Shown: positions 7,376 to 30,360, counted from the first letter of the stretch. The stretch: 50,909 nucleotides of DNA from Streblomastix strix (GCA_008636045.1 SNRW01000005.1:1-50909); one strand, 5' to 3'. Made by a program: numbers and translations. The notes: generated from the letters alone by a model not told the origin.

Positions 7376-7724
7376 TAATAAAGTAACTAATAATGTAATT
7401 AATTTATGATATATAGGTAAATATTTTTTTGATTAGTGACGATTGTTGTAAATTGTTATAAATGATTATCAACAATTTTGAATTTATTTTAATTTTCGCT
7501 TTTTTTTCCAATTCAATTTAAAAATTTGTTTTTTGTTAATATATTAAATATTAAAATAATTTATGAAAATTTCAAATCTAAACACAAGCGTACAAATTCT
7601 TCCTCAAGGAAATATTTAATTAAAAAATAAGTATTAATATTATTATTTGATGAGATATTTCTAATTTATTTAATTAACATTCCTATTTTTTATAGAATTT
7701 TTCAGCTTAATCGTCAAATAGATT

Positions 7725-8010: not shown

Positions 8011-9584
8011 ACTGCTTTACTTCTACTCAGAAACAGAATAATTTTCTCTTGCAGTTTGAAACAACCTGCTATTTTTCATTTTCGAACCTATTTACAAAAC
8101 TATCGTACTCATCTTTGCTAGACATTTTGAGTTATAAATTCCGATGATAACTCGCCAATAATCACTAAGTCCCTTTGAAACTCATGTTATATGCTTAAAA
8201 GCACCTTTAATAAATTGCAATAGATGACAAAAGATGGATGTTTACAAACATCAAGAAAAATTTTGAATACTATAGAAAAATGTCTTGCAAATTTCTCTTT
8301 TGGGGCTCTTTCACCTCACTTTGAAATTATTTCTTTTGCTGTACAACATCTTATTTAAAAATTATGACTCGTCTCGTCCAAATTGAATACAGGTCTCTTC
8401 TTCTGTCTTAAACGATACGTACAGAGAATGAGATTCTATTTGTTCATATGAGATTTGTAACATACAAACGTGTTGAATTAGGAACTTCTCGTTCGAAATC
8501 TTCTGCAATCCTAGGAAAACTCAGCTACGTAGCCCTCGTGATAGCTATCAAACGTTCTTCATCGTGCTGTTATATATAATTTTTTAAAGAATATCTTTAA
8601 ATATAATTGGAATGCGATTTTAATCCATTCGTCTTAAGAATTTGATAAAGTTTATAGTCGTTCAGGAGTTTCGTACGAAGATATTCGCACATTTTTTATT
8701 GTTATAAGAAGTTTGTCTGCTATTAAATTTAACATTTATATATGTTTCTAAACTGAAATATTAAAATTACTGGAAGGGATTGTAATTTACTGAAGGAATA
8801 AAAGAAAAAAAGCAATAACAGTATCCGTAAAAGTAATAAAGTTCCTGATTTTTCATTGTACTAAACGAGCAAAATCTCAAATTGCCTTTTCTCATTTTAG
8901 AAAATGATTAAGTACAATAGTCTTGTTTTTATTCTTATTACAAAAAAAATACAAAAAACGTAAAATTATGGAAAAAAAAAGAAAAACTTTGCCTTTTTTA
9001 CTCGACTGTACATTTGATTCCATCGAAATTGAAACTCTTTTATTTGTTAGATCATTTTAAATCCTAAAATACCGGTTTGTATATTTATTTTTTTTTAATA
9101 TGAAATATTTCTTGTATAATATTTTGGAGAAATTTTTCCTAAAATCTATGTGAATTTTCTAGATAGTTGGAGTATTTTTTTCAGATCTCTCAATTTCATA
9201 TTTCTTGTCTACATAATCTGATTATGCAAAATCTTTTTATAAGAATATTAGACAATTAAAAATTAGTAATAAGAATCTATAAATGATGTTTATTCATTTC
9301 AAATTGAAATTTTTTTATCAAAATAATGATCTAACGATATAATTTGCAATAAGAAATTATATAATTTAATAAAAATATGCATAACTATGGTAAATTTTAT
9401 TATTACTATTTATATTTTTATTTTTATTAAATTTAGAGATTATATTTGAGACTTAAATCATACGAAAGAGGCAGACAAAGACAGAAATTCTGTATTTAGG
9501 ACAAAATAAAATTTTTTGAAAATTTTTAAAAATTATTAGATTATATTTTTTTAAAGCAACTAAATTAATACTCCTTTTTCATAT

Positions 9585-9870
9585 TCTTGTACTTATATAA
9601 TGGCTGAGTCCCACGTATCCTAATCGAATCGTACGAGGATGCAGATCATCTTCAGAAAATAGCAGTTGATTAGGCACGTAATTCTCAATCTTTGTATTAT
9701 TTAACTATGCAAATGAATGAAATAGTCGTCCTTCATCCAATTCTCCATCAACTTTCATACGCTCAACGTATGCTTCGAAACTTTCTTGTTCATCAAAAAC
9801 AGGATGAATTGTTCTGCATGCAGCAGAAGATGATTGATTATTTCCAATCTCAATGCGTAAACGTTGTAAT
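9585..9870 (-). pseudogene. OTU-like cysteine protease remnant, copy B
   Basis: FDEQESFEAYVERMKVDGELDEGRLFHSFAQLNNTKIENY...RTIRLGYVGLSHYIST matches the C-terminal half of OTU domains (Y..rM..dGeWG, I.LgY.g..HY.S). No Cys box found. Confidence 0.6.
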
Positions 9871-10026
9871 TGACTCTACAAAATTAGTCTATAATTAACA
9901 TATATGAATAAAATTTAAATAAATTTGTAAAATAATAAAATTATTACTTAAGATTTAAACTATATTTTCTTTCAAATTTTTGATCTTAATTTTAATGCAT
10001 AATATTCAAGCGCTTTCTGTGAAGTT

Positions 10027-10262
10027 AGAGATAATTAACAAACTTTTGGATACCAAGATTTTTTAGGAATAAATCATCTAAATTGTCCCAACCAAATGAC
10101 TATAAGCATCAACGCATATTGATATTTAATATTACTAATTGATACAAATATTGTGTAATATTATTTATCTGCTCAAACAAATTATTAATAACAGCAAATT
10201 GGAATGAATGATGTGTTGATTGATATTATTACTTATTTTTTCCATAAACTAATATAAACGCT
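10027..10262 (+). repeat. Left terminal inverted repeat
   Basis: AGAGATAATTAACAAACTTTTGGATACCAAGATTTTTTAGGAATAAATCATCTAAATTGTCC... is the approximate reverse complement of 30124-30360. Confidence 0.9.
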
Positions 10263-10578
10263 GAACTATGTGTTACAATAAAATAATATATTCATTCTCC
10301 ACACATTTTTTTCTAAAATTTACGATAATATTTATATATTATTTACGTAATTTGTTTTATTCATCACTTACTGTTTACATTTCGTTAATATAATTTTTCA
10401 GTTCTTCACCACAAATATCTTTAATTCTATCTTCATAATCAGCAAATTAGTATAACGTTAAAAGTTGTGCCTATTTTGATAACTATATTTTATGTAAATT
10501 ATCAGAAGAGATATTATTAATCATTTTTACTTTACCTCACTCATCTATAAGAACAATATTCCAACTCATAAGTTTCAT
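10250..10578 (-). pseudogene. Viral ORF of unknown function, running into the left TIR
   Basis: ATG at 10578 preceded by a T-tract; MKLMSWNIVLIDE*GKVKMINN...; contains an internal TGA. Confidence 0.35.
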
Positions 10579-10616
10579 TTTAAATGAAAATAAAAAATAA
10601 TATTACATAATAGTTC

Positions 10617-11800
10617 TCATTCAATTACATAATTATCTAAATCATTTTAGAAATCATATGGTAGTAATCTTGCATTTTCTAGTATATTCCCCTCATTAAA
10701 TTTATGATCTTTTCTTTCTCTTATTTTTGCCGTACTCTATTCATACTACTACTGTTCTTTAGCTCTTTCTCCTCTCTTCTCAATTTTGCCTCTTTAATAG
10801 CTTATTCAGTAGGAACACTAAATTTTGTTACACCTTCTTCATTTGTAACATCATGAATTTCGCCTAAATCACTGTTCCAAAATCCTACACAACCTACTTA
10901 TATTAATCTCATCATCAAATTATCTCTTTATTAACTTTAACCAGCTATGAAATATAGGTTGTATACTCATTTTATTGCTTTATTCAATTTATTATAAATC
11001 ACTAACGATGTCGCATCATCTTCATCAAATGATTATCCTTAATATGATTTATTATAATGTAACAATAACTATTGAACGATAACTCCTTTCCATATTCTTC
11101 CTCCAATAACTGAACACACTTAAGCAATTGTATAATCACGCTCTTTCAAGAATGAAGATAGATAATTTTTAATGAAAAGTCTATTGCCATCTGCTGGGTT
11201 TTCTTCTTCTTACAATTATTTATAATTTTTTTCTTAACGTTCTTCTTTTGTTCGATTTTCACTGAAATATTTAATTACTCTTTGACGTTTAATTGGAACT
11301 GTAATTCTAAGTCCATCAGCTGATTGAATAAATCCTCTATGATCACGAACAACATACTCTGGAAATTTATCACCATTAATGTCTTCACTAGATCCTACCC
11401 ATTTCATTTATCTAGTATTTGTTCTACTTTTCTTCTACTCTTCAAATGAAAGCTGATTTGTCCACATTTTCTTGAATTGAATGTTTTTATTCTTAACAAT
11501 CAAATCCATTAGAGGATCATATGATTATTACCTTGATTACGCTAAAAACTCATTTCTTTTTAGCTGATGATTACTCTCTAACTTTTTTTAATACTCTTAA
11601 TTAACTTTCATCCGTTAATTTAATGTTAGTTATGGTCCTATTATCTTTTCATACGTTTCATATCGTAGTACTATTCTTCTATTTTCATAGTAATCTACTT
11701 CTTAAACTCTCGGCTTAGTATGAGAAGTTTATCCTAATCTTTGAAGTATTGTTGGTGCTGAAGATGCAGATAATTGATTTTATTAAATTTGTTCAATCAT
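10617..11800 (-). pseudogene. Viral ORF of unknown function with a DxNGD-type motif
   Basis: ATG 11800, TGA 10617, frameshifted; contains WVGSSEDINGDKFPEYVVRDHRGFIQSADGLRI. Confidence 0.55.
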
Positions 11801-11860
11801 TCGGTTTAAGCAAAAAATTGAAGTCAACATATATCAGTCATTAGTTTCAACAGTAAATTA

Positions 11861-12645
11861 ATGTCAAACTATTCGTTGACTCAAAATGTAAACGAACTAT
11901 TTAAGATTTAAGTCACTAATAAACATGATGTTTAAAGAATAGTTCACAAAGAAATTAATTTTACATATAATTCTATTAACTTACTTATAGGCTACAGAGG
12001 AAATAGTAAATTACATAATATATTCAAAGAATTAATCAAATTGAGATAGGTTAAAAACTATTATACATTATTTATATTTGTTACTGATAACAATAATGAT
12101 TAAACATATAAGAAAATGAGCGCATTAATCATTATTCCAACAAAGATTGTCACTTATTGTGAAATTGATGGAGTACTTAATGACCTAATTGAGGTAAAAT
12201 CAGCGTATGATACAGTTGTTGAGATATTTCTAATAAATTTGCTTATATTAAATTCAAAATATAATATTCTTTCTGCTTTTGGCGCATAGATTTTTAAAAT
12301 GAAATATCCACTTACTATAGTTCTACTTGATGATTTGATGTCAGTATTCAAAAATAAACAATTACCTTAATTTGAAAAATTATTCAAGATCAAAGAGCCA
12401 AGAATCACTTATTTTCTATGTTATAAAATATAATTGGACTTGATATAAGTATAAAAGCTAATACGGATACAATATACCTTTTTGATAGATTCAACAGTTA
12501 GAAATTAATTTTATTTTATTATTATTATTCTATATTATTTGATAAAGATAATGAATAGAAATAAAATATAAAATTAACAAAGAGATAAGCTTTAATAGTA
12601 TAATAAAGTAATGATAGAACAAAACTAAAAATATTGGAGTCATGA
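11861..12645 (+). pseudogene. A32-like (FtsK-HerA superfamily) genome-packaging ATPase, degraded
   Basis: NSINLLIGYRGNSKL (decayed Walker A), LTIVLLDD (Walker B), then KLFKIKEPRITYFLC and, after a frameshift, IKANTDTIYLF (A32 family arrangement). The only + strand gene I found in the element. Confidence 0.8.
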
Positions 12646-13651
12646 ATCATCTAAACCATCAATTGAAATAATCCCTTTGTCTATTAAACACTAAATAATT
12701 TATCCAATTAATCATTATTAATTTTAACATTATTTTCTTCGTGACACTTTCTCAATGAAATCTCACCTTTGAGTTTAGTAATACAATATCCAATGATTTT
12801 AAATGTTGTATTTATATTTTATGTGATCATTTTATCCATTAATTCTTTATTTAATATAAGATACTATTTAAATTCATCAATTGTTTCAAATATTACTAAC
12901 TCCGGTGAGTAGTTCTCAAATATCTTTAATTATGGTAGATTATTATTTACTTTATTTGCTTGTTTCTATTTACTATCTAATATTACTCTATTTATTTTAT
13001 TTGAAATAAAATCATAATTTTTCATCAAAATACTAAATAAACTTTAGGTAAAATTGATATTTGTGACTAATCAACTAACTAACTATCTTTATTTTTAAAC
13101 TATAATAGCACATATGTACGATGATTTAATTGACGAAAATGTTTGTCTGAACATTATTCATCTCAACAACCTACATATTAATCATTCATTTACTCTACTT
13201 ACACAAATGAAGCATATAAATAAAGATCCTAACAAATTAATTACTTATTTGTTCTACATTATATAAATATTATCTCTCTATTATTTTTGATGTCACAAAT
13301 ACAACATGCAATATAAATTTATTCATTACTCAGTCTGTTTATGTAGTTGAATTTTAAGTTAATGTCATCCGTTTTCTGTTAGGTTTTGAGATCATTTTAC
13401 ATTCAAATATTACTTTCAAAAGAAAACTGACATAAATGCTTAACTCAACAATTATGGTAATTTTACCTTTAAAGATAAACCTCAGCTATACATATTATAT
13501 TTCGTATATCATCTACTATTGAATATAAATTATTGTACTTGTTTTTCTTTAGTTCTATATCAAATTCTTAAATTCCTTTTGTCTTTTGATAATAATCGTT
13601 TCATAGTTAAGTTTCTAGCTGCTTAAGCTAATCGTATATTTATTTATCCAT
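12640..13651 (-). pseudogene. Viral ORF(s) of unknown function, heavily degraded
   Basis: ATG 13651 after a T-tract; ends ...IDKGIISIDGLDDS* at TGA 12642-12640; several stops and frameshifts. Confidence 0.4.
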
Positions 13652-13679
13652 TTTGATAAAAATAAAAAAAAATGATTGC

Positions 13680-15393
13680 TCATCTTTCAATTTAACTTAT
13701 CACTTCATCAAACATGTTGTAGACATCATAAACACATGAACCACCATTAACAGGTCCAAACAACCAGAATGTATCATAAAATGCACATAGAATAGGTGGA
13801 GGTGGTATTTTACTCATTATATCAACATTATAATAACAATCTGTATCACCTTAATAAATAGGTGCTACTCTTAATTCTACTGACACATTTTAATTATTTG
13901 TATCCAATCCATCAAATGTTAGTGCACCATTACTATTACGTTCACATTAAAGTGAAATCATGAATTATGTCAGATCAGTATGAGGATTTAATCTCCTTGA
14001 AGCTGTGTTTCTTGATGTTGTGAGAGCATCTTCGAATTCATCAGTTGCTTCGAATAACAGATCCAAATTACTTGCATTCAATTACATTTAGGAGAATTAT
14101 TAATCTAGTATACTCATATGCATGTCTGGAAAATTTCTACGATAAGTTGTAACTTACATGTTATGATATATGGATTTTCATAACAAGTTATGTCTCTAGT
14201 AAGTTTAGGAAATAATAGGCATAAATCAATAATATTAGATAATTGAATATTTTATGAAGTTCTTATTCCTGTTGTAGTAGCACTTGTTGGAAATGACCAT
14301 GCTTCAACTCTCTATGCAGGTACAACAAATGGCCTATTTTCAAAGAAATCACGTACTCCTTATAGGCAATCATCAATTGCTTTATATCCACTCATATTTG
14401 CAGTCACTTCAGTTACAACGAAATTCTTTATTAATAATGTTAAAGGACTAATACTACAAATCAAATTCTTCAATCCACTATCTGTAATTTATTCTAAACT
14501 TATTTTTGTAATGAGATCTGCTGTACATCCCATTTAACTAAATTACTTAGTATATTGATATCCCAAACTCCAATTTCTAAAGAGTAGATCAATAATCTTA
14601 AGCTTATCCGGTCCGTTAGCCATAAGATCAGTCTTATTGATAGTGTAGTATTTAGCCAGGCTGATAACTAAGTTCATTTAAGCAAATATAAATGCATTTA
14701 GTTTAATTTTAAATAAAATTTTAAAATCACCAAATAAAGAATTTGGATAGTCAGTAAAACCACTAAATATTATGATATCTTCTATTGGAATAGATAATCT
14801 AAATCTTATTGGAGTAGCGTATAGAATAGAAACTGGATCTTTAATTGCATATTCTATACCTATCTTTGTTATATAAGTGCCACAATCTGATGTATCAAAT
14901 TTATAGATATTTTAATACAATGAGTGAATATGTTTTCAATTATTTTTTCTCACATCTTGGTTTAACAGTGCTATAGATAAATTATTCGGTAGTTGAATCA
15001 TTCTACAATGTTCCATCAATAATTCTGCATTTATGATAAATAGTATATTCTCTTATAATTTGACTGGCTGATTTAAATCTAATGAATAATACAGTTCCAT
15101 CTTTATAAGACTCTTCTAATCTTTCAAACTTATTATCAAACTGTACATTAGCTTTAAGAACTATTAAAATGGAATGAATTCTAAATTGATGTTACATCAT
15201 GATCTTAATCAGATAATCTACTTAAAATTTCTTTATCAAATAGTGCAGGCATCTTTGACTCTGGTTTGATTTCTTTGATTGAATAATAGTGTTCTCCATC
15301 ATTTCTAAATGCATTAACGTAGTTACCTTTTAATGTTGCTTCGATAGTTCCAAGTTATTACAAATGCATTGACTTATTGAGAAAGTGGCTCAT
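13680..15393 (-). pseudogene. Putative major capsid protein (probably double jelly-roll), frameshifted
   Basis: About 570 codons, beta-strand-rich: LFIRFKSASQIIREYTIY, GFTDYPNSLFGDFKI, FVVPAQRVEAWSFP, CERNSNGALTFDGLDT...VSVELRVAPIYQG, PPPPILC...DTFWLF. Size and position near the ATPase and fibres fit a Maverick MCP; the fold is inferred. Confidence 0.65.
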
Positions 15394-15439
15394 GATTTAT
15401 TTGAAGCAAAAATAAACTAATCATATGTAGTAAATTAAA

Positions 15440-15886
15440 CTTTTAAACTAATTATTTTCAAAAATCTTATTCGCTGACTTCTTGAATACAATATGGAGAA
15501 ATTGTATTATATTATGTTCCGTTTACAGTTTAATTTGAAGGAATTGCAAGATGAGTTCCCATAGTTCAATTTATATTTCTTGACACATTCGGATTAAGTC
15601 TTACATATCTATTATTTTCAATTGACTATATTACTCTAGGTTAATCAATGAAATTCCCTACATCATTTCTAAAATTACCCAAGTTCATTATTCTTTCTTA
15701 AGCATTATTTGTATATATTGCATCTAAACCACTTGACGCAGCTTTTAAATCTTTACTTATTATTGGTGGTGCTAATATGTTAGTAAATGGTTTAATAGGT
15801 ATATATATGTTGGATCACCTAATTTACTCCTTCATCAATTTTTTGTGCTATTTATTTGATTTTATGAAAGATTACAGCTATTTCAT
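15440..15886 (-). pseudogene. Small viral ORF immediately upstream of the capsid gene
   Basis: ATG 15886; after a frameshift reads IPIKPFTNILAPPIISKDLKAASSGLDAIY...; function unknown. Confidence 0.35.
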
Positions 15887-15949
15887 TTACAATAAATAAT
15901 CAATTTCATGAGCTGATTCGTATTAACATACAACTTATTCATACAAAAT

Positions 15950-17557
15950 AACTTCTATTAATATAACAATTAACAAACTTATTAGGTTTAAATTCTGATA
16001 ATATATGAATATGCTAGCGAACCAGATTATCTGTATCTGTTACCGTGAGATAAGCGGAAGGAACGTCTTATATAAGGCTAGTGTTGAAATCATATAATAT
16101 CATAAATGCGAACAATAATGTTCTTTTTGGATCTATCGACTAATTCATACTTAGTACATACTTTTTAGTTTCTATAAACCCTTTCAATCTCAAATGTTTA
16201 TTGAACATGACTAGTTTATTAACAGTATCATCAATCATTTAAATCTTAAAAGCATCTATGTCATATGGAATATAAGCTAATGCAAGTAATTAATCTTTTG
16301 ATATGTCTATTACTGCATATTATGGAAATACTGATGGTGAAATAGGCAATGGTGGTAGAATATCATGTTACATAATAGTTCTATCTATATGAGAAATTGG
16401 TTAGTCACTTGATGTTATGTTATTCTAATTTGATTCTTATGGCTGTGGATCAATTAAATAACTTCCACTAAAGTCTCAAAAATCCATAAGATAATAACCA
16501 AATCCTTAATTCACAACAACATCTGGTCTGTCATTTCCATTAATCTATATCATGCCAGCGAATGAGGTATAGGAGGTCTTAATTTGGAAGAATTTAGATA
16601 ATCTAGGTTATAAATCAGAATCTATTGTTTAAAATACTTTGAATACATTATTTACATGTTAACTACTAACTTCAACTTGGAAATTAAACGTACATATTAG
16701 CCCATCTTTAACAAAATTTGCAGCACTAAGGGAACCAAATGTATTATTATTCACTAATTTAGTATTGTTATTGAAATAATTAAATAATGAAACAGGTTAA
16801 CTTGGTTCGTAAGGTTAAACTCCGTCATCAATCATTTCTGTCTAATTTAACATAATATCTTATAAAAATGACATTGATTTCATTCCATCAATAATATAAT
16901 TAACATGTCAGTCATCTACAATATTTATATTTCAATCACCATTTACATCACTAGTTGATCTCTTTAATAGTTCATAATTTATATAATAAAAATCTGCAAT
17001 AACAATATGATTATTTCTTTAATCGGCGTGTTTTGATCAACATTACCAATTAGTGACTCTATATAAAATCTTTTTTCACTAATGTAACCCATTATATTTT
17101 GTTGATGACCTCCATCATCTCAAAACACTAATGCATGCCTGCTATATGGCCACTACTCTTTGGGAAAGCTAGTGAACACAAAACCCATGAAATTTTCTCT
17201 AAGATACGGTCCAATGTTAAGTACTACTTTATTTCATAATTTATGGAATTTAATTCTCCCATCACTGATATTATATAGAAGTAAAGGTTATGTTAGTTTT
17301 GTTATTGGAATTGTTATTATCTCTGCAGCATCAGGTATTGGTTGTGTTATTGGTTCTGGAGGTGTTTGTTATACAAATATTTTTTCTTCAATATCTTTCA
17401 CTTAATCCTGTAGATATTATGGTCCAGCAATGATTTGATTAGTTACTCCATCAACAATTGGTTTAGATTCACGATCATGAATATAAGCATATAATTCTGA
17501 GAAATCTGATAGGCCAGCTGCATTCTTTAGCGCTTCGTCAATGTAAACATTACTCAT
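15950..17557 (-). pseudogene. Fibre/receptor-binding-like protein with repeated beta-rich head-like modules
   Basis: ATG 17557; Pro-rich linkers (TPPEPITQPIPD, LPPLPISPSVFP) separate modules such as NKVVLNIGPY...FTSFPKEQWP and FVKDGLICTFNFQV...TIDSDLQP. Confidence 0.45.
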
Positions 17558-17625
17558 TTTATAGTCAAAAAATTAACAACTTCATTGATTGATACAATGA
17601 ATTAATATTAAAAGATTTATTATCA

Positions 17626-20320
17626 AAGCATTCAACTAAATTATAGGCCAATTTCATCATTAGTACCAATTGCTTCTGTTGAATCGGTAGATACTCGAAT
17701 ATTTCTAAATGATAATACACCTGTTAATGTCTTTCGCTTTGTTGCCAATGTAATTGAATATAGTGCATGATGGTGCTGGTGGAGTTATGGTACTACTTAT
17801 GCTTTCAAAACTGCAGATCAAAGTAGCTACTAAAATATTGATTTAAGTTCTCGGTTGAAAATCTATCATTAAATGATAAAAATTATTTATTCGAGCAAGT
17901 TTTAAATAATTGAATGTAAAGGTTGAATTTAAACTAACGATTAAATTTGTTAAGTCTTCAACTTATACTCCTCCTAATGATGATACTAAAGCATCACCTC
18001 CATCAGCTAATAAAACTGATGTATCAACTTTATTTGTTTTCATAAATCCAGTTGCATTAATATTTGCATTAAATGTATTTTCAACATCAATATATTGAGT
18101 CGTACTTGACGTAACGTAATCATTTAATAATGCAGTATCAGCTTTAAAACTTATCATATCATTTGTTTTAGTTTTTGAATAAGTTTATGGTTTTATATAA
18201 TAATTCGTTAGTTTTGTATCAACTTCTGACTAAACCAAATTAGTATTGGCAACTGGATATTATGTCTCATCATATGTTGTACCAAATGGATTAACATATT
18301 TTAGTTTTTTAGTTATTGTTTATAAAATTGAACCTTCCAATATTACATTATTATTATCGGTTCTGTTCTTGAATAAGTTTATGTTTTTGTATAATAATTT
18401 GATAAATCTGTTGGAGCACTTACAAATTCAGATATTGTTTTAGTACCTTCAGATCTAAATAACACAGCAGTATTATCAGCACCAAATTTGATAAATGATG
18501 AATCAGTTACTGAAGACATTCCTTCAGTTGAACTAATGAATCTGCAACTATTATTGAATATCTTATTTGCTGCTATTGTCTATGAAGTACCTAATTTTAC
18601 GTAATTATCCAGATCAGTTGTATCTAAATCTTCATCAAATTATTCATCGGTTTTGTTTAGTATAATAATTACTCAAATCAATATCACCTGCATCAATCTA
18701 AGATATCAATTGATCAGTTTCTATTTTGATAAATGTTGTTGATTAATTTGCTTTATTATTTAATAAATTATCAGATATAGTTTTAGAATAAGAATCAATC
18801 AGTAATGTCTCATCTGCTTTCAATAATATGAGTGCATCATCTTCCGATTTAGTATACGTTGTTGATTAATTTGTTTTTTTTTTTAATAAATTATCTGTTT
18901 ATGTTTTAATATATGAATCAATCAATTATGTCTTATCTGCTTTCAGTAATAAGAATGCATCATCTTCATCTTTTGTATAAGAAACTTCTACAATTGCTTT
19001 ATCATTTTACAGGTTATTTGTTTCAGTTTAAGAATATGTCTAAGTTTTATTGTAATAATTACTCAAATCAACACTAGCATTTATATCAGATATTGCTTTC
19101 GCTTAACCATTTGCAAGAAATACAGAATTATTATCGTATCCTGAGTATTGAATGCCTTTAGAAATAATAGTACTTGTAAAGGTCTTAATCTCAATAATAG
19201 AATGATCGTTTCCTGTAGTAGCAAATATAGTATTATGTGCAAGTATTAGTGTGTTTTTATCAATAGATTGATCTTTTATTGCATCACCTCCTGCAGTTGC
19301 TACACCAAGTGTTGTTATAATGTTACTCATATCAGGTAGATCAGTTTCTAGAACTTTTAAGTCAGTTCCATCCCACCAATAATCAGTAACTTCTTTATCA
19401 ACAATATATAAATTATCTTCAATCACTAGTTTTGCAACATTGTCTTGAAAAGTCATCCAGTCATTCAACTCTTCTTATGTTGAGAATATATATACTTTCA
19501 ATTTACTAGTTGCTGAATCTAGAATTTCTTATAACTATAGTTGTGCTACTAAATAACTTACTTAAATATTGCCACCTTCAGCAAATAACACGGAAGCATC
19601 ATTTTTACTTAGTTTTGATATGCATGAAACACTAATTACACCGAATTATTTTTATCTTGATATTGTTTGAGCAGAAGTTAAATCAACATAATTCGTCAAA
19701 TCTGTTTTATCAACTTTCAATAATATGAGTGCATCATCTTTTATCTTTAAGTAACTATCAACAATATCGGCGACATTATCTCTAAGATTTAATTTATCAT
19801 CAGTTTCTGTCTTAGTGTACGCTTCGATTTATTCAGCTATATTTAATTTTAAATCTAAGTTTTTATCAGCATTCAATAATAAGAATGCATCATCTTCTAT
19901 TTTAGAATAACTATCAATAATATCTACTTTATCTGCTTTCAATAATAAGAGTGTATCATCTTCCGTCTTAGAATAAATATCAATAATATCTGCGACATTT
20001 GCTTTAAAGTCTAATTTTGTACTGAATTCTTCAGCACCAACAAAGTTGCTATCAGTTTTGTTCATAGTGTATATATCTGACTTGTTAGTTTTTGTTTCAA
20101 ATATTTGATTTGCTTATGTTTTAGTAAAGACTTCGTCTCTGGCCTAAGTTTCACTTTTGCTATACGAATCAGATATAGGTGTGTTTTGTAAAATATTAAT
20201 TTGTTAATTAATGTTTTTAACTTATTCTTTTAAGCTAACTTTATTATATCTAATACTACAAAATAATGTTTCATCATGAGTTTAAATAACATCAGTTATA
20301 CGTGCTTCATTTTGTGCCAT
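17626..20320 (-). pseudogene. Tail-fibre-like repeat protein
   Basis: ATG 20320; many YSKTEDDALLLLKADK / YTKTETD-type repeats and T.QTI..K.F...F.K....sVLLADGG modules reminiscent of phage tail fibres. Supported by track ORFs 17963-18157, 19103-19468 and 19829-20065. Confidence 0.7.
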
Positions 20321-20398
20321 TTATTCAAAAATTAGCAGTTTGGACTACATCTTAAATTAAATTTAGAACTACTAATAATACTTTCGATACTGCTTACA

Positions 20399-21562
20399 TC
20401 ACTCTTGAAGATATCTCATTTAAGTCTAAAATAGATGTTATTTTTTCTTATTTTCTACAAACATAACTTATAAATGTCTCTTAACAGATTAACTTTATTT
20501 TCCTCTAGTGCATGAATATTTATATTTCCAATACCGATCTCAGTTAATATTATAATACCGTCATTCATGAATTTAGTGCAGCATGTACTTATATCTTCAT
20601 TCAGTTAAACTTATTATTTATTAACATCAAATGTGTTTGCAATAACTCGAATAAGTTAAGATTCAGATAAAATGAAATGAGCTGATTCTTTTAATATATG
20701 GGAGTTTCCACACAAAAACAACCAATTCTAATTTTATTGCATAAAACAATATGAAATAATTTTATTATCAACACCCAAGTGCCCTTTTTTGCCATTTTTG
20801 CAGAAACGTGGAGTTGGCGAAAAAATTGAAATTTTTCATACCAATACCAACACTTAATAAATCTCTTTAAATTTATTATTATTTTAAAATATATTATGAT
20901 ATAATTTAATTTAATTAAATTTTAATAAAACTAATTAACAAATAATATAAAAAAATGAAAACTTTAATTTTTTTTAAAATTTTTTGAATAATCTTAATAT
21001 TAATTTCAAAACGTTTTTTAGATAAAATTAATATTATTTTATTATAATAATTAAAATTAAATTTTAACGTATTTTTAATAAATTAAAAACTACAAATTTT
21101 TTCTCTATTACTAGTCAATTAATTTTGTTTTTTTATCTAGAAATTAAATTATATCATAATATATTTTAAAATAATTATAAATTTAAAGAGATTTATTAAA
21201 TATTGGTATTGGTATGAAGAATTTCAATTTTTTCGCCAACTTTACGTTTCCGCGAAAATGGAAAAAAAAGGGCACTGGGTATTAAAAGTAAAATTATTTC
21301 ATATTGATTTATGCTATAAAAATTGAATGAATTGCTTTGGTGAAGAAACACCCATATGTTCATCTTCACTAATTATATCCAATAACCATTTACATATTGA
21401 TGAATCAGCTACTAACACATCTTCAAATATTGAGCTTCTTCTTCGTGTGGATTGTTATGAAGAGTCAATAGATGTCAATTAATTTTTTCCAAACGGTGAA
21501 CATTCTTCTTTAATTGTGAGGATTGATGTTAATGATGATCTTGGAAATAAAATTTACGTCAT
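20399..21562 (-). pseudogene. Viral ORF of unknown function interrupted by a MITE
   Basis: MTQILFPRSS...WLLDIISEDEH[insert]ILKESAHFILSESQLIRVIANTFDVN...STCCTKF; the frame is restored exactly when 20700-21353 and one ATAT copy are removed. Confidence 0.7.
20700..21353. mobile_element. Non-autonomous DNA transposon (MITE), 654 bp, ~215 bp TIRs, ATAT target-site duplication
   Basis: Arms ~20700-20915 and ~21140-21353 are approximate reverse complements (e.g. AGTTGGCGAAAAAATTGAAAT / ATTTCAATTTTTTCGCCAACT). Ends GGG...CCC; ATAT at 20696-20699 and 21354-21357. Confidence 0.9.
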
Positions 21563-21584
21563 TTTATCTAAATAAAAATAACAA

Positions 21585-21773
21585 TCATAAATTCTCAATT
21601 AAACATTCATAAATACTCTTCAGAGTGATCTTTTTATGAATATCTCCTTCTTCACCTTTTATAAGTTCATTTATTACATCAAATGCACTGGCTATCAAGA
21701 ATAAATTAGCTATCTCAACTAATGCTATGATTGTTAGTGACACATTTACTGTAATTTCGAAAATAATTTTCAA
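21585..21773 (-). CDS. Small hydrophobic viral ORF (possible membrane protein)
   Basis: 62-codon track ORF with a hydrophobic N-terminal half, ending in TGA; start codon is not ATG and may be mutated. Confidence 0.35.
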   Translation of the reverse strand: MKIIFEITVNVSLTIIALVEIANLFLIASAFDVINELIKGEEGDIHKKITLKSIYECLIENL

Positions 21774-21789
21774 TTAGATTAAAAATAAA

Positions 21790-22107
21790 TTTAATTTAAT
21801 TATTCTTCAGTATGATCTTATATTCTATGTCAGTTTATAGCGATTCCAACGTATAACCCCTTTCATATTCTTTAAAATTTTGATCCGATAATAATTTCAT
21901 TAACTGTGTTTGCATTGTATTATTTTAAATATATGCCTTTTTCTACGTATATCTTCTCTTTGTAGCTAATTATTACGTACGTATTGCTTCCTTTCAATCA
22001 TTATCAATGAAGTATTTATTCGACCTTCATACTGATCTCTTTTCAATTTATTACTCATTCTCTTCCCTTACAGATTCATTGATTCTAGTTTCCATTGTTG
22101 TTTCCAT
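21790..22107 (-). pseudogene. Small basic protein with a decayed AT-hook-like motif
   Basis: METTMETRINE...KRSV*RSNKYFIDND*KEAIR resembles GRP.KY.t.eerkea if the two TGAs derive from GGA and CGA/AGA. Confidence 0.35.
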
Positions 22108-22133
22108 TACAATAAAAATAAAAAAAATTAAAT

Positions 22134-23224
22134 TCACAATTTTAATATAAAGTATGATTTATATTCAATATCTAATTCACTAATATTTTTTGCTACAAAT
22201 TTTGTAAAGAATATTGGTAATTCTACTGTTAATAAATCAATATATGGATTAAATAGCTCAACTTTAACATTTCCATTAATATATTCCATTTACGCACTTA
22301 TGTTGTTGAAATTGCGTCTCATTTTATCAAATTAATGTTTTGTTTTTGATGTATCAAAGTATAGTAGTAAAATATTACCTTTTCAATATTATTTTAAACT
22401 ATATTATATTTATAATCTCAACGCATCATTTAATTATTTCTATTAATGATAGATATATTATCCTTCAATTCGCTTATCATTTTAAACTTATATTGTACTA
22501 TACTTATTTAAATAAACAATATGTGGATTACGATTATAAAATCAACAGTTTATTACATTAATTATTTATTAGCAAGATCATAAATATTATTAACAAACGC
22601 GTTTCTTATTGCTTGAATAACTATATCTATTACTCTATTATCATTAGTAAATTTACAACTTGTGAAGAATATGTATATCTTATTTTCTTTATAGAAATCA
22701 TTCAGTAATTTTTATGCATAAACTTTCTCACCATCCCCTTTTATATCATTAATCGGAACTAGTTTTATCAACTATTTCAGTGCTTCAAGTATTGGAATTT
22801 ATGATTTAGAGTTCACTAGAATAACAACTAAATATTTAGTATTAATATTAATAGTGATTAGATATTATATTATTTCAACTTTCATTTTCATTACGCATAT
22901 TTAATCTTGTTCTTAAGAATTATAATATGGTGAAAAATATGACCTTTCAAATCTTGCTAATAGTTTTAGTTAATTATCATGAGGTTCTAGGGTATTAGCT
23001 TAAGGATAAATATCAAGTTAGTTCTTAATTTAATGAGGTCGTATGTTATTGTAATTAGCTTTACGTATGACGTCATGCTTTAATTTGAAAGGGAATTTAT
23101 TTTATATCATTTCTTGGAATAAATTATCTTTCTTTGATTTATTTAATTTGTTTAGCTTATTATCCAATAAATAAATTTCTATAAATATCTCTCAGAATAT
23201 TATTATTTATATTAGTCATACCAT
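22134..23224 (-). pseudogene. Retroviral-type (rve) integrase
   Basis: YNSQEQD...YLITININTKYLVVILVNSKS...INDIKGDGEKVY...FTNDNRVIDIVIQAIRNAF...QTVDF and, after a frameshift, YNRNPH follow the integrase core pattern (first D, GD, helix 4, YN..pH). Ends at TGA 22136-22134. Confidence 0.8.
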
Positions 23225-23249
23225 TAGCTAAGAGATTAATCTACAAAAT

Positions 23250-23843
23250 TAATTTTTAGTTCTATTTAATCCAATACCTCGAGCTATTTTTAATTAAACT
23301 TATAATTACAAATATTGTTACAAAATGATTGTTTCTTATTAATATTTTCTTATCGAAGCATTTTATTTATTTTTGTATTTGGATCTATATTATTATCTAA
23401 ATTGAATTACTCCTATTCATTAATAATATCTATTTCCTACTACTTTAATTTGTTAAATTCGTTAACAGAAGTAATTGATGTTGATTAGATTTGACTTTTC
23501 GTTTTTGATTTAGGTTATTATAGCATTTTGGCTACCAATTCTGCTGGTATTGATTCTGCTTGTGTTGTAGGCTGGGTTAATGATTAAATTTGTCTCTATT
23601 CCAATAAAATTGGCTAATTAATTTAATAGGCTAATAAACTTAAACTTATTGTTTTGTAACAACTTTGTTGATAGCATATATGTTACCATCTTGGATGCAG
23701 TTGATTAAATATTAATTCTTTCATGTTTTATTTAACCAATTTATTAATTATCTTACTTCTATTTGATAAATTTATATAAAAATTTGGCTTTTCTTCCTCA
23801 GCTCAACTCAAATATTTATTCCATAATTTAATATAATCATCAT
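23250..23843 (-). pseudogene. Viral ORF of unknown function, degraded
   Basis: ATG 23843 after a T-tract; Gln/Pro-rich fragments such as QPTTQAESIPAELVAKML. Confidence 0.3.
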
Positions 23844-24139
23844 TTATTAAGTAAAAAATATAATAATATCCAATTTTAAGAACTCTTTTATCTGAATCCT
23901 TTTCTAATAATAGCTTCATCTACCCCTTTGAAAATTCAACGTTATCTATATTACTAAAATTATAAAATAATAATGAGCAATTGCATAAAAATCAGTATTT
24001 TTCTATTGATCAAGTTGTTGCTTAATATTCATTTAATTTATAATAATTAATCAAAAATAGCTTTGAAAAAAGTTGGAATAAATTAATGACTCAATTAACA
24101 AACATGTTTGCTGGCTATCAGCTAATCAAATTATATAGT

Positions 24140-24722
24140 TTTTTTGAATTTATCAATGCAAATTTATACTTTTTTATTATCATAAATTATAAATATAAAC
24201 GAATAATTGTCCATTTTACATTTTCTCATTGATGTTTAATACTCTATATTTTAAACCATTATAATAATTAAATTTATTTTATTCTTCACTAACGTTATAA
24301 AATTCAAACCTTTATATTCCATAATCATTAATAGTAACAGTGTCATTAGGGAATTCATCAACATATACATATTTAACATCATTATTATGTTTCGATTTAT
24401 TTTTACAGTTGTCACTTGCAGAAACATACGTTAAATTACTTAAACTGTTATTTAACTTATTTTAGTCTTTGTTATCAATTTACGTCATATTAATTGGATC
24501 ATCATTTTCAACAAACTATTCTGCAATAATTTTATGAAGATCTCACATTTTTCCACCAATTTTTCCACGCAAATAGCTACATTTATACTTACTGAATTTA
24601 GGAATAAATCCATCTTCTTTTCTTCTGATTATCATTGGCTCCTATTTTAAAATCTAGAATTTACTATTAGCTTTAAGAGTTACGAATTCTACTTTTGTAT
24701 AATCTTCTTATATCTGACTCAT
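24140..24722 (-). pseudogene. HNH homing-endonuclease-like protein
   Basis: LHKIIAEQFVENDDPINMTQIDNKDQNKLNNSLSNLTYVSASDNCKN matches the HNH_3 pattern HR.vA..F..N...VdH.D.nk.nN...NL.wv..s.N..N. The catalytic H appears as N, and there is an internal TGA. Confidence 0.75.
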
Positions 24723-25476
24723 TTTCAAATAAGATTAAAAATATAAATAATATCTAGTTTACTAAATTATTCATTTGCATAATTTTGACTCTCATGCGTA
24801 TTTGATTCCTGCTTCATAGATAGCTTTTCAAATAACATGCTAATCAATGTAAAGTGGTTCAAATGCTTCAATTGTTATAGTTATATTTGCAATAAACGTT
24901 TATACCAGCGAATTATTAATTATTTGTTCAAAAATTAACATTTTAATTTATGAAAAATAACAAACATAATTTACAGGCATAAATACTAAACTAATCAACA
25001 TACAGTCTCATCAATTTATTCTTATAATTCTTCCATATATTCAGCTCCTAATGTTCTATATCTATTAATAGCACTACATAATCTGTCTTCTACACAGTTT
25101 TAAACAGTCATCCAATGTATTTCTATTTATAATCTTTCTTTCAACATCTCTCGCATTTTAACTGTAGCACTATTTACTTAATTTAAAACTCAGTTCATCA
25201 TTTATTTTACTTCCTTTAGAAAGCCAACTTTGCTGACAAAATTAGATTTGAATAAATTTATTAAATTAATTTAGAATATGTTTATTTACTTATTAGTCAG
25301 TTGTCTTCGATTTTGAGTTTACTTTTTATTAACATTTACTCGGTTAATTTTCAAGCTGTTATGGTTACGATTATATTTCCAATAGGTACTTGATTTCTTT
25401 AACATAAGAAGCAATTTTGTTTAACTATATTACTTGATTATCTATTTTAGATCAAATAAAGAAAGAAATTATTATT

Positions 25477-28400
25477 AAGCTTTGATTTGATAATCATTAG
25501 CTGTTAATCCTTTAAAATAAGGACAACAACATTAATTCTTAAAATGCATTAATTTATTATTGAATTCAGTTAATGCGTATTTTTCCACTTGTATGCTACT
25601 CATTCCATTATCATAAACTTTAAATGTTACGTTAACACCTTTTTTCACTATATCTTTATTAATATCATAAACATAATCTTTATGAGTTATTTCTTATGTT
25701 TTACCTATTCCTTCTGATGTAATTTTTTTTAAATTCGTACTATTATTTTTTTGTTCCATTTATGTTCTATCATTGAATAGCACTTAGATCCAAGTGATAT
25801 TAGTTCATATCTTTAATTTTCTATTACAAATCCAAGTATCTTTTATAGTCATAGATGTTATTATTAGGATCAGGCAAATACTAACATATATGTTAGTCAT
25901 AGGACTATTTATTTGATGGAATAATTTCAAATAATTAATGGTAGTCTTTGTTTGTATAACCTGCAATAGCTATATAGATTGGATCAGTTTCGGCAAGAAC
26001 AGAATGAAATCGCTTGCGGTTAAGACATTTATACATGAAGTTATATATATAAATGAGATACCAATATTTTGCATTATCTAATGTAATAGCTCCTGATTAA
26101 AGTGATGCAAAACAAGTAGCTATCTTAAGTTTAATTTATACTGCAAATGTGTTAGCATTAAAACATCTGGTACCAATGCAATTAGGATGATGCTATGTAA
26201 TGAAAGCATCAGCTTTATCTAATAATTTTTTTTACCAAACTTCTCTGTATTTAGTGTATCATAGCCATATGTTGCGTTAATTATTAATTTATAAAATTTT
26301 TCTTTGGATCATCCTGCAAAGAAAGCTTATATTCTTAAATTCATCATTGTCCTAATAAAAAGCTAATAAGCCGTATTTATCTCAAAAAGTGCAATAGCTT
26401 TTTAATCAATGATGATGAAACCTAGATTAGTAAGAAATGAAAGATAGTAGTTATTGAAAATCATATACTATCCATTAGTTTCAAGTAATGTTGTTAACTT
26501 TCTATCTTTCTTAGTCATTGGAAGTGAATGTTTTTGTGGTTATGAATACATATATTCACCTATCAATTTTTTTTGTTTTCTATCTAAATATTTCTAAATA
26601 TAGGAAGTAGTGCAAGAAAGCTATTGCATTCTGATTTAGTAAAATACCCTTTGACTTTTGCAACAAATATATTCATTCGTTAATATATACAATTTTTAAT
26701 TACATATGGTTTTACTGAATAAAATTTTGATCTTCTTGTCATATATATTCTGTGATCTGTGTAAGGAATATTTTCATTTTTGATAGATGAATTTGAACAG
26801 GGTTAAAGACTATTACCATCAAGAGCAAATACATGAGTAGCAATATTTTCATTAACTTTTGAGAACAATTTATTTGATTATTCATCATATGTTAATTCAT
26901 TTATATGAGTTTCTCCTGAAATATTCTTTTTATGAAACACTGATGCCAGACTGCCTATAATACATTCACATAATAGTTTATATATTCTTTTATCTCTAAT
27001 TGTCATAGATAAGTTGTTATTAATTGCATATTTTCTCATCTTATCATTTTATGATGCTATTTATGGATTTCTATTTGCATGAACAATATTATGTGAAACA
27101 CATGCTGGTAAACAGTTATCTTTTGTATGTGAAAGTTCATTATTTTCTCTATCTAAACTTGGTGGATTCTAATAAATAAATTTAGCGTTACAAATTGAAC
27201 ATACTGATGTTTCAAATAACTTTTTATACTAAACATAGTCATCTGCTATTACATTATTATCTGTTTCTCTACCAGCTTTATAATCTTATTGTTTATAATT
27301 TTAACACTTATTTTTCCAGAACCATTATGTCAATTCAAAATGTTTCGCTTAAGGATTTGGATTAGTGTAATCAGCATTTATATCGAAATCTTCCTAATAA
27401 CTTTATCCTTTACTTTCAAGATTAAACTTATAAGGAAAATAAGTTCAATAATGTTTGTTGCGTATGCATATGATGCAATTTAGATATAATGTAAGACACC
27501 AATGTTGAATTATTCAAAAGTAATAGTTAAATTCTTTAATGGTTTAATCATAATTTCTGTATCATTAATGTTATAGTATTTTAGGTGCTCTAGTTTGTTA
27601 TTGAATCTCTTGTAGTCAATCAAGTATTGATTATATTCATCAAATGAAATAGAATAACCTCATTTATGCCATGATTTAAAATCTTCATATTCAAATAACT
27701 CTATTTTCATTAATATTTCTTTCCAATTCTTTGTGTTAACAATTTCATAAGGAAATACGCCTTTATTTTCTTGAGATAATATATTACCATAATCTTTTAC
27801 GAATGCTTATAATTTCATTGGTCCAAATAAAATCTCTGCATCAATAAATTATTATTTCATATGAGATTTCTTGAGTGTTACCGTTATTAATTTAGTACTA
27901 TTGAGATCACCAATAGGAACATCCATTGTCCAGAGTTCACTATCTAAGGCAACTTATAACAATGCAATATCAAATCTAAAACTATTCCATCCCAATGTCT
28001 TATCACACTTATCAAATGGAAAATTTGAATGATCATATTACATATATTAATATATTTATCCTGCTGATTTGAATGTCTCCGCAAGCCATAGATGAATAAA
28101 AGATGAATTGAGTGGTAATTCAAATTTTAATAATTAATTTTATTAATCAATTGCTATTTCGTCGAATAGTGTATAACATCTTTTCTTTAATTTATGTGTC
28201 TTATCTTTGTTTGGATACACTTCTGTAGATGCAATTGATAATCTAGATAATTGTGAGAGTAATATTGTTTAATCTGTAATTTTCTCCATAATTTAATCAC
28301 TCAATGTTTCAAAATCAAAATTAATAAATCCGTGCTATGCTTAAAATTGATCCAATAATTCATAAACCAATAAGTAGTCTATTGTTGGATGATTTAGTAT

Positions 28401-30008
28401 TGCAGGATATATTGGCACTGGAACATCATGTCATAAGATTGATGGTTGATATGTTGATGATTTAGATTTTTCTACATAAGTATTGAAATATTCATTAGCT
28501 CTTTTGTTAGTTTCTGATAATATTGTTATATAATCATAGCAGTGAGGAAAAATATGAACACCGATAAGTTTTTTTACATTAGATACATACATTACATGTT
28601 ATCTTTTTCTATCATTAATGAGTAATTAGTCAAAAGTCATTGATTCATTATTAAGTTTACCATATGAATTAAATAATTTATACTTACCTGTTTTTCCTTC
28701 TAATTCTTCATGAAAACTGTATATATATTAATCACAAGAAAAAAAATATATCAGCAAATTTAGTCATTTCAGTGGAGATATTGAAATCTTAATAATCTTA
28801 TAATTAATTGTTAAGTGATTAGTCTTTCTTTGCCTTATAATTGTATACTTACTCAAATAGTTAATATTTCTCTTTAATTTTGTAGAGATATGCAAATAAT
28901 TATTTAACAAAAGTTTTTACAGAATGAATAACTACTTCTTCATCAATTTCACTTCTGATTTTATATGCTAACGCCGTAAAGAAATATATTTTATAATCTG
29001 AATCTACATAATGAACTGAATGTTGTTCAACATATTTGTCAAGATATGACATTCTTGTTCCAGTATATATTAATTTATAAGTAGTTAACATTACATTAAC
29101 TATTCCAACTATCAGATTTCTAGTATCATCTACGTTCTTTCCATTAATTCTCTCATCTCTACGAATATAATTACTTTGAATTATTGTAATAATTTCTTAT
29201 CAATAATTGTTCACTTTTAATATTTGAATGCATTATCTAATGAAGGAATTCTAGATGAATATTAATTGTTATTACCATCAAGGTTTATTTATATTTAAAT
29301 TCAAAAATTAATTTAAACATTAAACGGAAGTCCTTTGTACAATTCAAAAATTTTATTTGCAAATTAAAAGAGTTGTTCTTACTAAATTAGTTTATTATAG
29401 TAATGAAGTTTATAAGAAATTTCATCATAAACAACTTCAGCAACTACTTCTTCACCCTTAAATTTATTTACACTTTTTATTGTTTTAATAGCTTCTTCTT
29501 AATCTTCTACATTATATAATTGTAATGCAATTTATGATAATTTATTGTTTCTTTTTAAATTAACAATTGCTGAAAAAGTATTGCAGAAATTAACTTCGTT
29601 TTACATCAATTATTGATTCAAATTATGTTTAAGTTTATTGATTCTATCTTTTATATATTCTATCAACATCAAACTGTTTAACTTTGTGTTGTTCTACATT
29701 ATCATAAGATTCTAATCTATATATATAATTTTTTTGATTCTATCACTATATATTCTATCAACATCAAATTCATTTATAAAAAGTTAATTCTATCTATCAT
29801 GCAACATTTCTATGAAATTTGATTAATTGACATCAATTTCTTACATAATTTATTGATATGTTAATCCAAATTTTTACTGAAAGAATTGATGTACATTATT
29901 AAAGTTTGCTCTACTTTCTGTATAATCTAAATTTTATAATTTAGTTATTAATTCAATATATAATGGACCATATTTCTCTGTTTCATTAATAGGTCTAATA
30001 ATTGCCAT
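25477..30008 (-). pseudogene. Protein-primed family B DNA polymerase (pPolB) with a long N-terminal extension
   Basis: ExoI FINFDFETL, ExoII GWNSFRFDIALL, KGVFPYE, ExoIII LKYYNINDTEIM, motif A FALDGNSLQP (~26795-26840), motif B KFYKLIINATYGYD (~26250-26305), motif C decayed to LAETDPIY (~25975-26000). Confidence 0.92.
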
Positions 30009-30123
30009 TAATCAAAAAATTTCCACTTTTGTGAACATAGATATTTATTTGAAAATAAAAAAGTAATAATAATTATAGATTTATATATTAATTTTTACTA
30101 ATTAATTCTTTCATCTGATGTGA

Positions 30124-30360
30124 ACATTTAGATTAGTTCATAGAATAAAAAAAAGTAATAATATCAATCAAATATTATTCATTTCAATTTGCTGTTATAA
30201 ATAATTAGTTTAGGCAGATAAATAATATTGCACAATATTTGTATCAATTTGCTATAACAAATAACAACATGTGTTGATGACTATCATCATTTGGCTAGGA
30301 CAATTTAGATGATTTGTTCCTAAAAAATTTTGGTATCCAAAAGTTTTGTATATTATCTCT
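30124..30360 (-). repeat. Right terminal inverted repeat
   Basis: ...GGACAATTTAGATGATTTGTTCCTAAAAAATTTTGGTATCCAAAAGTTTTGTATATTATCTCT pairs with the left TIR. Confidence 0.9.

What the first reader, a model, noticed from the sequence alone, without database searches (positions are those of the whole stretch)
10027..30360. Full-length endogenous Maverick/Polinton-like virus that is invisible to standard-code ORF calling
Both TIRs (AGAGA...TCTCT) enclose modules for replication (pPolB), integration (rve integrase), packaging (A32-like ATPase) and structure (putative MCP, two fibre-like genes), plus an HNH nuclease and roughly ten unknown ORFs. The layout fits established Maverick/Polinton biology, but the proteins look highly divergent and may represent a little-described lineage infecting this protist group. 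Novelty cannot be confirmed without searches.
Basis: partly seen in the sequence, partly recalled or inferred. Interest (0 to 1): 0.88.

Follow-up and report, generated by a model that had tools for sequence, protein, structure and literature searches.

The report
Decayed termite-protist Polinton-like endogenous virus
A 20-kb DNA virus genome, bounded by inverted repeats and written in its host's unusual genetic code, lies broken by frameshifts and stops in the genome of what is likely the termite-gut protist Streblomastix strix; it is one likely dead copy of a virus family already reported there in 2023.

Summary
The element is real: 20,334 bp between 87%-identical TIRs. It encodes a capsid protein about 80% identical to Streblomastix strix proteins; an intact relative folds as a double jelly roll. 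It also encodes a pPolB with an HNH/endonuclease-VII-like insert and a free HNH nuclease. ATPase and integrase rest on motifs only; no penton, protease or clean TSD was found. TAA/TAG read as Gln. The copy is full length but broken: MCP has 3 frameshifts, pPolB 7 frame changes and altered catalytic motifs, and several breaks recur in a separate contig set of the reads. A ~660-bp palindrome, likely a MITE, interrupts one ORF. Not new: Bellas et al. 2023 (PMC10120064) reported 820 MCPs in S. strix, their use of this code, and their cluster with Trichomonas; one of my hits is in their table. The scan noted the same theme on other DNA (e1-7142348). What this copy adds is a TIR-to-TIR gene map for a group still unplaced in 2026.

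The parts
10027..30360 (.). Whole endogenous Maverick/Polinton-like element, 20,334 bp, GC 24.9% (flanks 28.3% and 24.7%)
   Evidence: left host-TIR junction lies within one contig with 0 differences in run X1
10027..10258 (+). Left TIR
   Evidence: 201 of 231 aligned bases identical to the right TIR
30127..30360 (-). Right TIR
10629..11833 (-). Conserved ORF of unknown function, broken
   Evidence: 58-62% identical to part of S. strix protein P0051 over 11377-10629; no family hit
11861..12642 (+). Likely A32-like packaging ATPase, degenerate Walker A near 11990, Walker B near 12317, one frame change near 12410; the only core gene on the + strand
   Evidence: motif scan, three-frame reading; no profile hit; the A32 label is recalled from motif layout
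13683..15369 (-). Major capsid protein pseudogene: 4 pieces, 3 frameshifts, 1 in-frame TGA
   Evidence: 79-85% identical to the 562-aa S. strix P0003; P0003 model pLDDT 92.4, best matches all double jelly-roll capsids
15461..15814 (-). Small conserved ORF of unknown function
   Evidence: 52-76% identical to parts of S. strix proteins
15942..17557 (-). Family-conserved ~538-aa gene next to the capsid gene, broken (1 frameshift, 5 TGA); untested candidate for a vertex or minor capsid protein
   Evidence: 69 S. strix relatives; breaks; fold failed, pLDDT 38; Atlas best score 0.88, lead only
17650..20398 (-). Fibre-like repeat protein (YTKxExD-type repeats), one broken gene or two
   Evidence: repeat families D5, D9, D12; matched by S. 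strix P0062, P0064, P0330; PHROG 5004 of unknown function, E 1.5e-4; 'fibre' is an inference from the repeats
20419..21619 (-). Unknown ORF whose two halves flank the nested palindrome and lie in a compatible frame
   Evidence: frame arithmetic; no homologue among fetched proteins
20699..21354 (.). Nested ~660-bp non-coding palindrome with TA (or ATAT) on both sides, likely a MITE inserted after integration
   Evidence: arms 86% complementary over 220 nt, self-match of the whole stretch at 80%, flanks; no second copy in the window
22421..23191 (-). Likely rve-type DDE integrase pseudogene
   Evidence: DDE-like spacing read by eye from the translation, label recalled; no meaningful profile or sequence hit
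24183..24800 (-). Stand-alone HNH endonuclease, broken
   Evidence: PHROG 59 E 1.1e-11 and 7 further HNH PHROGs; Pfam HNH_3 E 2.4e-4, under its cut-off
25481..30011 (-). [quoted passage not shown]
   Evidence: 57-78% identical to S. strix P0086 over 29378-25481; relative P0093 hits DNA_pol_B_2 over its cut-off; P0092 and P0093 hit endonuclease VII, PHROG 1035, E 2.5e-14 and 3.5e-10; the open frame 30011-29304 is only assumed to be the N-terminus

Best explanation
This is an old, broken copy of a capsid-encoding Maverick/Polinton-like DNA virus, integrated in the genome of an oxymonad that is likely Streblomastix strix, and likely no longer able to copy itself. Shown: TIRs, MCP and pPolB homology, table-6 reading, the breaks. 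Predicted: double jelly-roll fold of the family's MCP. Inferred from Polinton biology: active relatives would replicate a linear genome from the TIR ends with the protein-primed polymerase, package it with the A32-like ATPase into an icosahedral capsid carrying fibres, and insert it with the DDE integrase. The replicating virus likely already used TAA/TAG for Gln: 52 of 63 Gln codons at family-conserved Gln sites are TAA/TAG, far more than about 6.5% drift since insertion would give. After insertion this copy likely decayed neutrally and took up a MITE. Because only TGA stops translation here, many would-be nonsense changes read as Gln, so its frames look healthier than they are.
For: TIR pair 87% identical, about 6.5% drift per arm if identical at insertion. 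MCP hits: 63 of 64 are named S. strix; pPolB hits 29 of 31; 538-aa gene 69 of 69. P0003 model pLDDT 92.4, pTM 0.91; Foldseek E 1.7e-13 to an iridovirus MCP, with PBCV-1, mavirus and Sputnik MCPs below; VIA-align Z 20.5 (rmsd 4.2, 351 aligned), the top 15 rows all viral capsid or scaffold proteins. Code: opposite window TAG codons, 15 unnamed non-Streblomastix MCP relatives have Gln in 24 of 32 pooled columns; opposite TAA in 60 of 214 (commonest residue); opposite TGA in 0 of 13. Decay: window differs at 56 of 417 (MCP), 104 of 515 (pPolB) and 58 of 326 (538-aa gene) family-conserved sites, against 2.0-7.2% for 12 annotated whole MCPs. Polymerase motif A reads LDGNSLQPCS against LDGNSLYPS in 15 of 27 relatives, motif C reads AETDP against ADTDS in 13 of 27. 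16 TAA/TAG codons in pPolB stand at sites conserved as another residue. 6 of 10 junction or break points checked are bridged by listed contigs of run X1 with no gap. Bellas 2023: 820 MCPs in S. strix, cluster MMPC_40, same translation table; my hit P0018 (EZS28_007111, 67% identical to the window's MCP piece) is in their confirmed-MCP table.
Against: ATPase and integrase have no profile support. No penton or Ulp1-like protease was found and there is no clean TSD. The two non-Streblomastix pPolB relatives give no support for Gln at TAA/TAG (4 of 41 and 1 of 14 columns). The fold was predicted for an intact relative, not for the window's own pieces. No host gene was matched to a named organism, so the host species is inferred from viral homologues, code and a termite-gut read set. 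4 of the 5 protein names I looked up in the 2023 table were not found, in a file that was cut when stored.
Confidence: 0.9

Rival explanations
1. The copy is intact and active; its frameshifts are assembly artefacts from collapsing many similar copies, as Bellas 2023 found for some protist elements.
For: Bellas 2023 show that many stops in protist EVEs are artefacts. The family is highly repeated in the reads, summed depth up to 27,949 against 68-110 in unique bins.
Against: Contigs of depth 42-87 in run X1 match the window with no gap across the MCP frameshift near 14946, two TGA stops, the fibre and ATPase frame changes and the left junction; no indel was listed. TIRs differ by 13%, substitutions hit catalytic motifs, and the nested palindrome has itself decayed.
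Confidence: 0.03
2. The family is a self-synthesising transposon that keeps a capsid gene but no longer forms virions in this host.
For: No penton or maturation protease was recognised. No relative was found among IMG/VR viral contigs in four completed protein scans. No virion is known for Maverick-Polintons.
Against: Whole 555-573-aa MCPs are kept in many S. strix copies with few changes at conserved sites, next to a conserved 538-aa gene and a fibre-like gene; 568 relatives at 50% clustering exist. This rival concerns the family's lifestyle and is compatible with the anatomy.
Confidence: 0.15
3. The virus used the standard code when it integrated, and TAA/TAG Gln codons arose afterwards by AT-biased drift.
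For: CAA to TAA is a silent C-to-T change in this host, and the region is 75% AT. Nearest unnamed metagenomic MCP relatives at 37-44% identity exist as whole proteins.
Against: 52 of 63 Gln codons at conserved Gln sites are TAA/TAG while drift since insertion is about 6.5%. A second copy, L001, only 69% identical in DNA, also opens as one frame under table 6.
Confidence: 0.05

Closest known systems
Streblomastix strix endogenous viral elements, Metamonada MCP group / cluster MMPC_40 (Bellas et al. 2023, PMC10120064)
   Same: Same MCP family (a 67%-identical hit is in their confirmed table; their structure-tested 562-aa S. strix MCP begins with nearly the same sequence as P0003), same TAA/TAG=Gln code, 820 MCP hits in that genome.
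   Different: In the passages and rows I read they give MCP counts and clustering only, no TIR-to-TIR gene map for S. strix. This copy is a pseudogenised one with a nested palindrome.
Trichomonas vaginalis Maverick-Polintons
   Same: Same MCP cluster, about 32% identity to S. strix MCPs in the 2023 table; Atlas neighbours include a Parabasalia-rich cluster at 0.97.
   Different: No named Trichomonas sequence was in my sets; 0 of 71 unnamed relatives hit any Pfam family, DUF4106 included. That Trichomonas uses the standard code is recalled.
Canonical Polintons/Mavericks (Polintoviricetes)
   Same: Size, TIRs, pPolB, double jelly-roll MCP, likely integrase and ATPase (definitions).
   Different: Protease and penton not found, TSD not clean; a 2026 preprint leaves Metamonada elements ungrouped.
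pPolB2 of oomycete and nematode Polintons with an HNH insertion (PMC10748475)
   Same: A pPolB carrying an inserted HNH-type nuclease domain; inserted homing nucleases in polinton pPolBs are also noted in PMC11161782.
   Different: Whether the insertion site and origin are the same was not tested; that paper calls the HNH insert unique to oomycete and nematode pPolB2, so this may be a further or an independent case.

Membership tests
Metamonada MCP group (Bellas 2023, MMPC_40) | MCP homologous to confirmed cluster members | tested here: met
   Window MCP piece 67% identical to P0018 = EZS28_007111, listed as a confirmed MCP under MMPC_40
Metamonada MCP group (Bellas 2023, MMPC_40) | S. strix members use TAA/TAG = Gln | tested here: met
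Metamonada MCP group (Bellas 2023, MMPC_40) | Integrated in a metamonad host genome | tested here: inconclusive
   Left junction bridged; a flanking 1100-aa frame needs table 6 (55 stops under table 1); host species inferred, no host gene matched to a name
Polinton/Maverick | 13-25 kb with 100-1500 bp TIRs | tested here: met
   20,334 bp, ~232-bp TIRs; definition
Polinton/Maverick | 5-8 bp target site duplication | tested here: inconclusive
   None at the exact ends; TTCTGT stands at the right end and 7 bp before the left end, matched by 2.8% of random flank pairs in a post hoc test
Polinton/Maverick | Protein-primed family B polymerase | tested here: met
   Exo I-III and A-C motifs in order; relative P0093 passes Pfam DNA_pol_B_2; broken in this copy
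Polinton/Maverick | rve-type integrase | tested here: inconclusive
   DDE-like motifs by eye; no meaningful hit
Polinton/Maverick | A32/FtsK-like packaging ATPase | tested here: inconclusive
   Degenerate Walker A and a Walker B in one frame; no hit
Polinton/Maverick | [quoted passage not shown] | tested here: met
   On the 80%-identical intact relative P0003
Polinton/Maverick | Single jelly-roll penton | tested here: inconclusive
   Candidate 538-aa protein gave a low-confidence model, pLDDT 38, and no family
Polinton/Maverick | Adenovirus-like (Ulp1) maturation protease | tested here: inconclusive
   No motif in six frames and no Pfam hit, but the sequence is decayed and several ORFs stay unassigned
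Polintoviricetes in the strict sense | MCP and ATPase group with Polinton groups 1/2 or Gossevirus | not tested
   My tree held no named Polintons; the 2026 preprint reports Metamonada elements as ungrouped
Virophages | Virophage-type MCP plus protease | tested here: inconclusive
   Mavirus and Sputnik MCPs match by fold (Z 16.4 and 16.0) but below NCLDV capsids, at 7-9% identity; no protease found

The most novel reading that the evidence does not exclude
The oxymonad elements are a separate high-rank lineage of double jelly-roll viruses that lacks the usual penton and Ulp1 protease, uses the 538-aa protein and the repeat fibre as a new vertex module, carries an independently acquired endonuclease-VII insert in pPolB, and is locked to table-6 hosts by its recoded genes, with intact copies still forming virions in termite guts.
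Probability: 0.2. Interest if true: 0.6.

Novelty: already known. Interest (0 to 1): 0.27.

Why it matters
The headline, an integrated Polinton-like virus written in the host's reassigned code, is in print since 2023. The residual value is practical. This is a complete, ordered gene map for a Metamonada group that a 2026 preprint could still not place for lack of genomes. It gives a simple argument that the recoding predates insertion. It also shows a trap: in table-6 hosts long open frames and masked nonsense changes make dead viral copies look intact.

Tried and rejected
No whole genome is held, so other copies and true termini could not be compared. Pfam on 69 table-6 frames found only HNH_3 under its cut-off and two chance hits. 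Sequence searches of solved structures gave nothing for the MCP profile, the ATPase or the pPolB profile beyond one HNH at E 0.93; the integrase's best hit, an OTU protein at E 0.044, was taken as chance. The 538-aa fold failed and was not searched. IMG/VR scans with MCP and pPolB alignments found no relative (could not run); the prokaryote genome scan found none; the metagenome scan gave one 3-kb locus. A 17-base TIR word matched 13 viral contigs, none with MCP, pPolB or more TIR, so chance. Attempts to fetch A32 or rve members from five of those contigs gave 0 of 5 each. No RNA holder was listed, which says nothing on expression. The right half of the element could not be checked against reads. 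The ATPase-like frame was not searched in the Atlas. No tRNA in the window. Table-6 ORF length was rejected as evidence. Look-ups of earlier scan notes by sequence and place were empty. Literature: a search for Streblomastix + virus + endogenous + capsid returned only Bellas 2023; other searches were made; subscription papers are not covered.

Full report
Observation. The window is AT-rich. An inverted repeat pair bounds 10027-30360; alignment gives TIRs 10027-10258 and 30127-30360 with 201 of 231 bases identical. No 5- or 6-bp duplication with at most one mismatch was found within 3 bases of the ends. TTCTGT lies at the right end and 7 bp before the left end; 2.8% of random flank pairs do as well in a post hoc test, so this is inconclusive. 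The longest frame inside the element is 123 aa under table 1 and 584 aa under table 6, but shuffled element DNA gives a median longest table-6 frame of 410 aa, so coding had to be shown by homology.

Capsid. The frame 14117-14935 found 64 proteins of 479 aa or more, 63 named Streblomastix strix, the best at 77-80% identity. The 562-aa P0003 maps to 15369-13686 in four pieces with three frameshifts and one TGA. A profile of 32 of these found 568 relatives among 1.84 billion representatives. A 90-sequence alignment gave a model of P0003 with pLDDT 92.4 and pTM 0.91. Foldseek's best matches are iridovirus, PBCV-1, mavirus, Faustovirus and Sputnik capsids (E from 1.7e-13), BFVD agrees, and VIA-align gives Z 20.5 to PBCV-1 (rmsd 4.2, 351 aligned) with viral capsid or scaffold proteins in the top 15 rows. 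The Atlas placed it at 0.97 with clusters whose recorded members are mostly Preaxostyla, Parabasalia or Preplasmiviricota. In a midpoint-rooted FastTree of the 90 proteins the 19 S. strix MCPs form one clade (support 1.0), nearest to unnamed metagenomic proteins; no named Trichomonas or Polinton sequence was included.

Polymerase and other genes. The frame 26566-27444 found 31 longer proteins, 29 named S. strix. P0086 maps over 29378-25481 in eight pieces with seven frame changes and six in-frame stops. Exonuclease motifs I-III and polymerase motifs A-C stand in order, with an HNH-type motif between them that 18 of 27 relatives carry. The unnamed relatives P0092 and P0093 hit endonuclease VII (PHROG 1035) and P0093 passes Pfam DNA_pol_B_2. 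In the window, motif A has Q for Y and motif C reads AETDP for ADTDS. A free HNH gene lies at 24542-24183 (PHROG 59, E 1.1e-11). The + strand frame 11861-12642 holds the only relaxed Walker A match in six frames and a Walker B, and 23191-22421 has DDE-like spacing; neither was confirmed by profiles or sequence searches, so both labels are recalled from motif layout. A conserved 538-aa gene (17557-15942) has 69 S. strix relatives; its model failed (pLDDT 38), and the Atlas and Pfam gave no family. The repeat-rich region 20398-17650 is matched across its first frame change by single annotated proteins, so it may be one gene. No protease motif was found.

Genetic code. Against 15 unnamed non-Streblomastix MCP relatives, window TAG codons face Gln in 24 of 32 pooled columns, TAA in 60 of 214 (the commonest residue) and TGA in 0 of 13; two distant pPolB relatives gave no such signal (4 of 41 and 1 of 14). 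At 74 sites in three genes where at least 70% of S. strix relatives have Gln, the window has TAA/TAG at 52, CAA/CAG at 11 and another codon at 11. Those relatives were annotated with the same code, so this count measures codon use, not the code. With about 6.5% drift per TIR since insertion, an 83% share implies that the virus used the host code before this insertion (inference). A flanking host frame of 1100 aa has 55 stops under table 1.

Decay. The window differs at 56 of 417, 104 of 515 and 58 of 326 family-conserved sites in MCP, pPolB and the 538-aa gene, against 2.0-7.2% for 12 whole annotated MCPs by a similar leave-one-out count. In pPolB 16 TAA/TAG codons stand where relatives conserve another residue, mostly Y, K, E or L: likely point changes that would be stops in the standard code. 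Three runs of one termite-gut sample were listed, one holding 68% of the words. Its contigs laid on 9500-20500 show no indels, and six of ten junction or break points lie inside listed gap-free contigs. A ~660-bp palindrome at 20699-21354 has TA (or ATAT) on both sides and splits an unknown ORF whose halves are frame-compatible; a MITE is the likely reading.

What is known. Bellas et al. 2023 (PMC10120064; passages and rows of supplementary file 2 read, file cut when stored) define a Metamonada group with parabasalid and S. strix MCPs and state that the S. strix elements use the host's TAA/TAG=Gln table. They count 820 MCP hits in 152 Mb, test a 562-aa S. strix MCP by Foldseek, and list my hit P0018 as a confirmed MCP in cluster MMPC_40; four other names I looked up were not found. 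They also warn that stops in such elements can be artefacts. A 2026 preprint (10.64898/2026.06.19.733378, passages only) leaves the Metamonada elements ungrouped; another (10.64898/2026.10.13.758929, one passage) notes that Trichomonas MCPs fall outside the Polinton clade. HNH inserts in pPolB are described for oomycete and nematode Polintons (PMC10748475, passages) and noted in PMC11161782 (passages). Polinton core genes are taken from PMC4028283 (passages). One earlier scan note on another genome reports the same theme; I had reached this reading before seeing it.

Verdict. A real, complete but pseudogenised member of a published family. It works like a Polinton; membership of the Metamonada MCP group is met, while strict Polintoviricetes membership is not shown, because protease, penton, TSD, integrase and ATPase tests were inconclusive. 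Interest 0.27.

Noticed in passing
window 20699-21354: Near-perfect ~660-bp palindrome with TA/ATAT flanks inside a viral ORF, likely a non-autonomous DNA transposon; its family was not identified.
   Followed up: partly
window 25481-29378: pPolB carries an HNH/endonuclease-VII-like domain between exonuclease and palm, also present in unnamed metagenomic relatives P0092 and P0093; relation to the oomycete/nematode pPolB2 insert untested.
   Followed up: partly
window 7717-8181 and 9582-9971 (-): Two related short host frames just left of the element share a 72-nt stretch at 78% identity (D17), suggesting a tandem gene duplication; no Pfam hit.
   Followed up: no
window 1471-6338 (-): Large host gene, 1100-aa frame under table 6 plus upstream frames, with a 16-nt tandem repeat at 1568-1743; no Pfam hit.
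   Followed up: no
proteins P0099-P0243: Dozens of whole, unnamed MCP relatives at 22-44% identity in public metagenome assemblies, none with a Pfam hit in the 71 scanned: a large uncharted neighbourhood of this capsid group.
   Followed up: partly
window 18370 and 18772-18913: Reads of other copies diverge or skip at repeat boundaries of the fibre-like gene, so its repeat number seems to vary between copies.
   Followed up: no
L001:1950-3083: A second copy of the MCP gene, 69% identical in DNA to the window, open under table 6, with unrelated-looking sequence upstream.
   Followed up: partly
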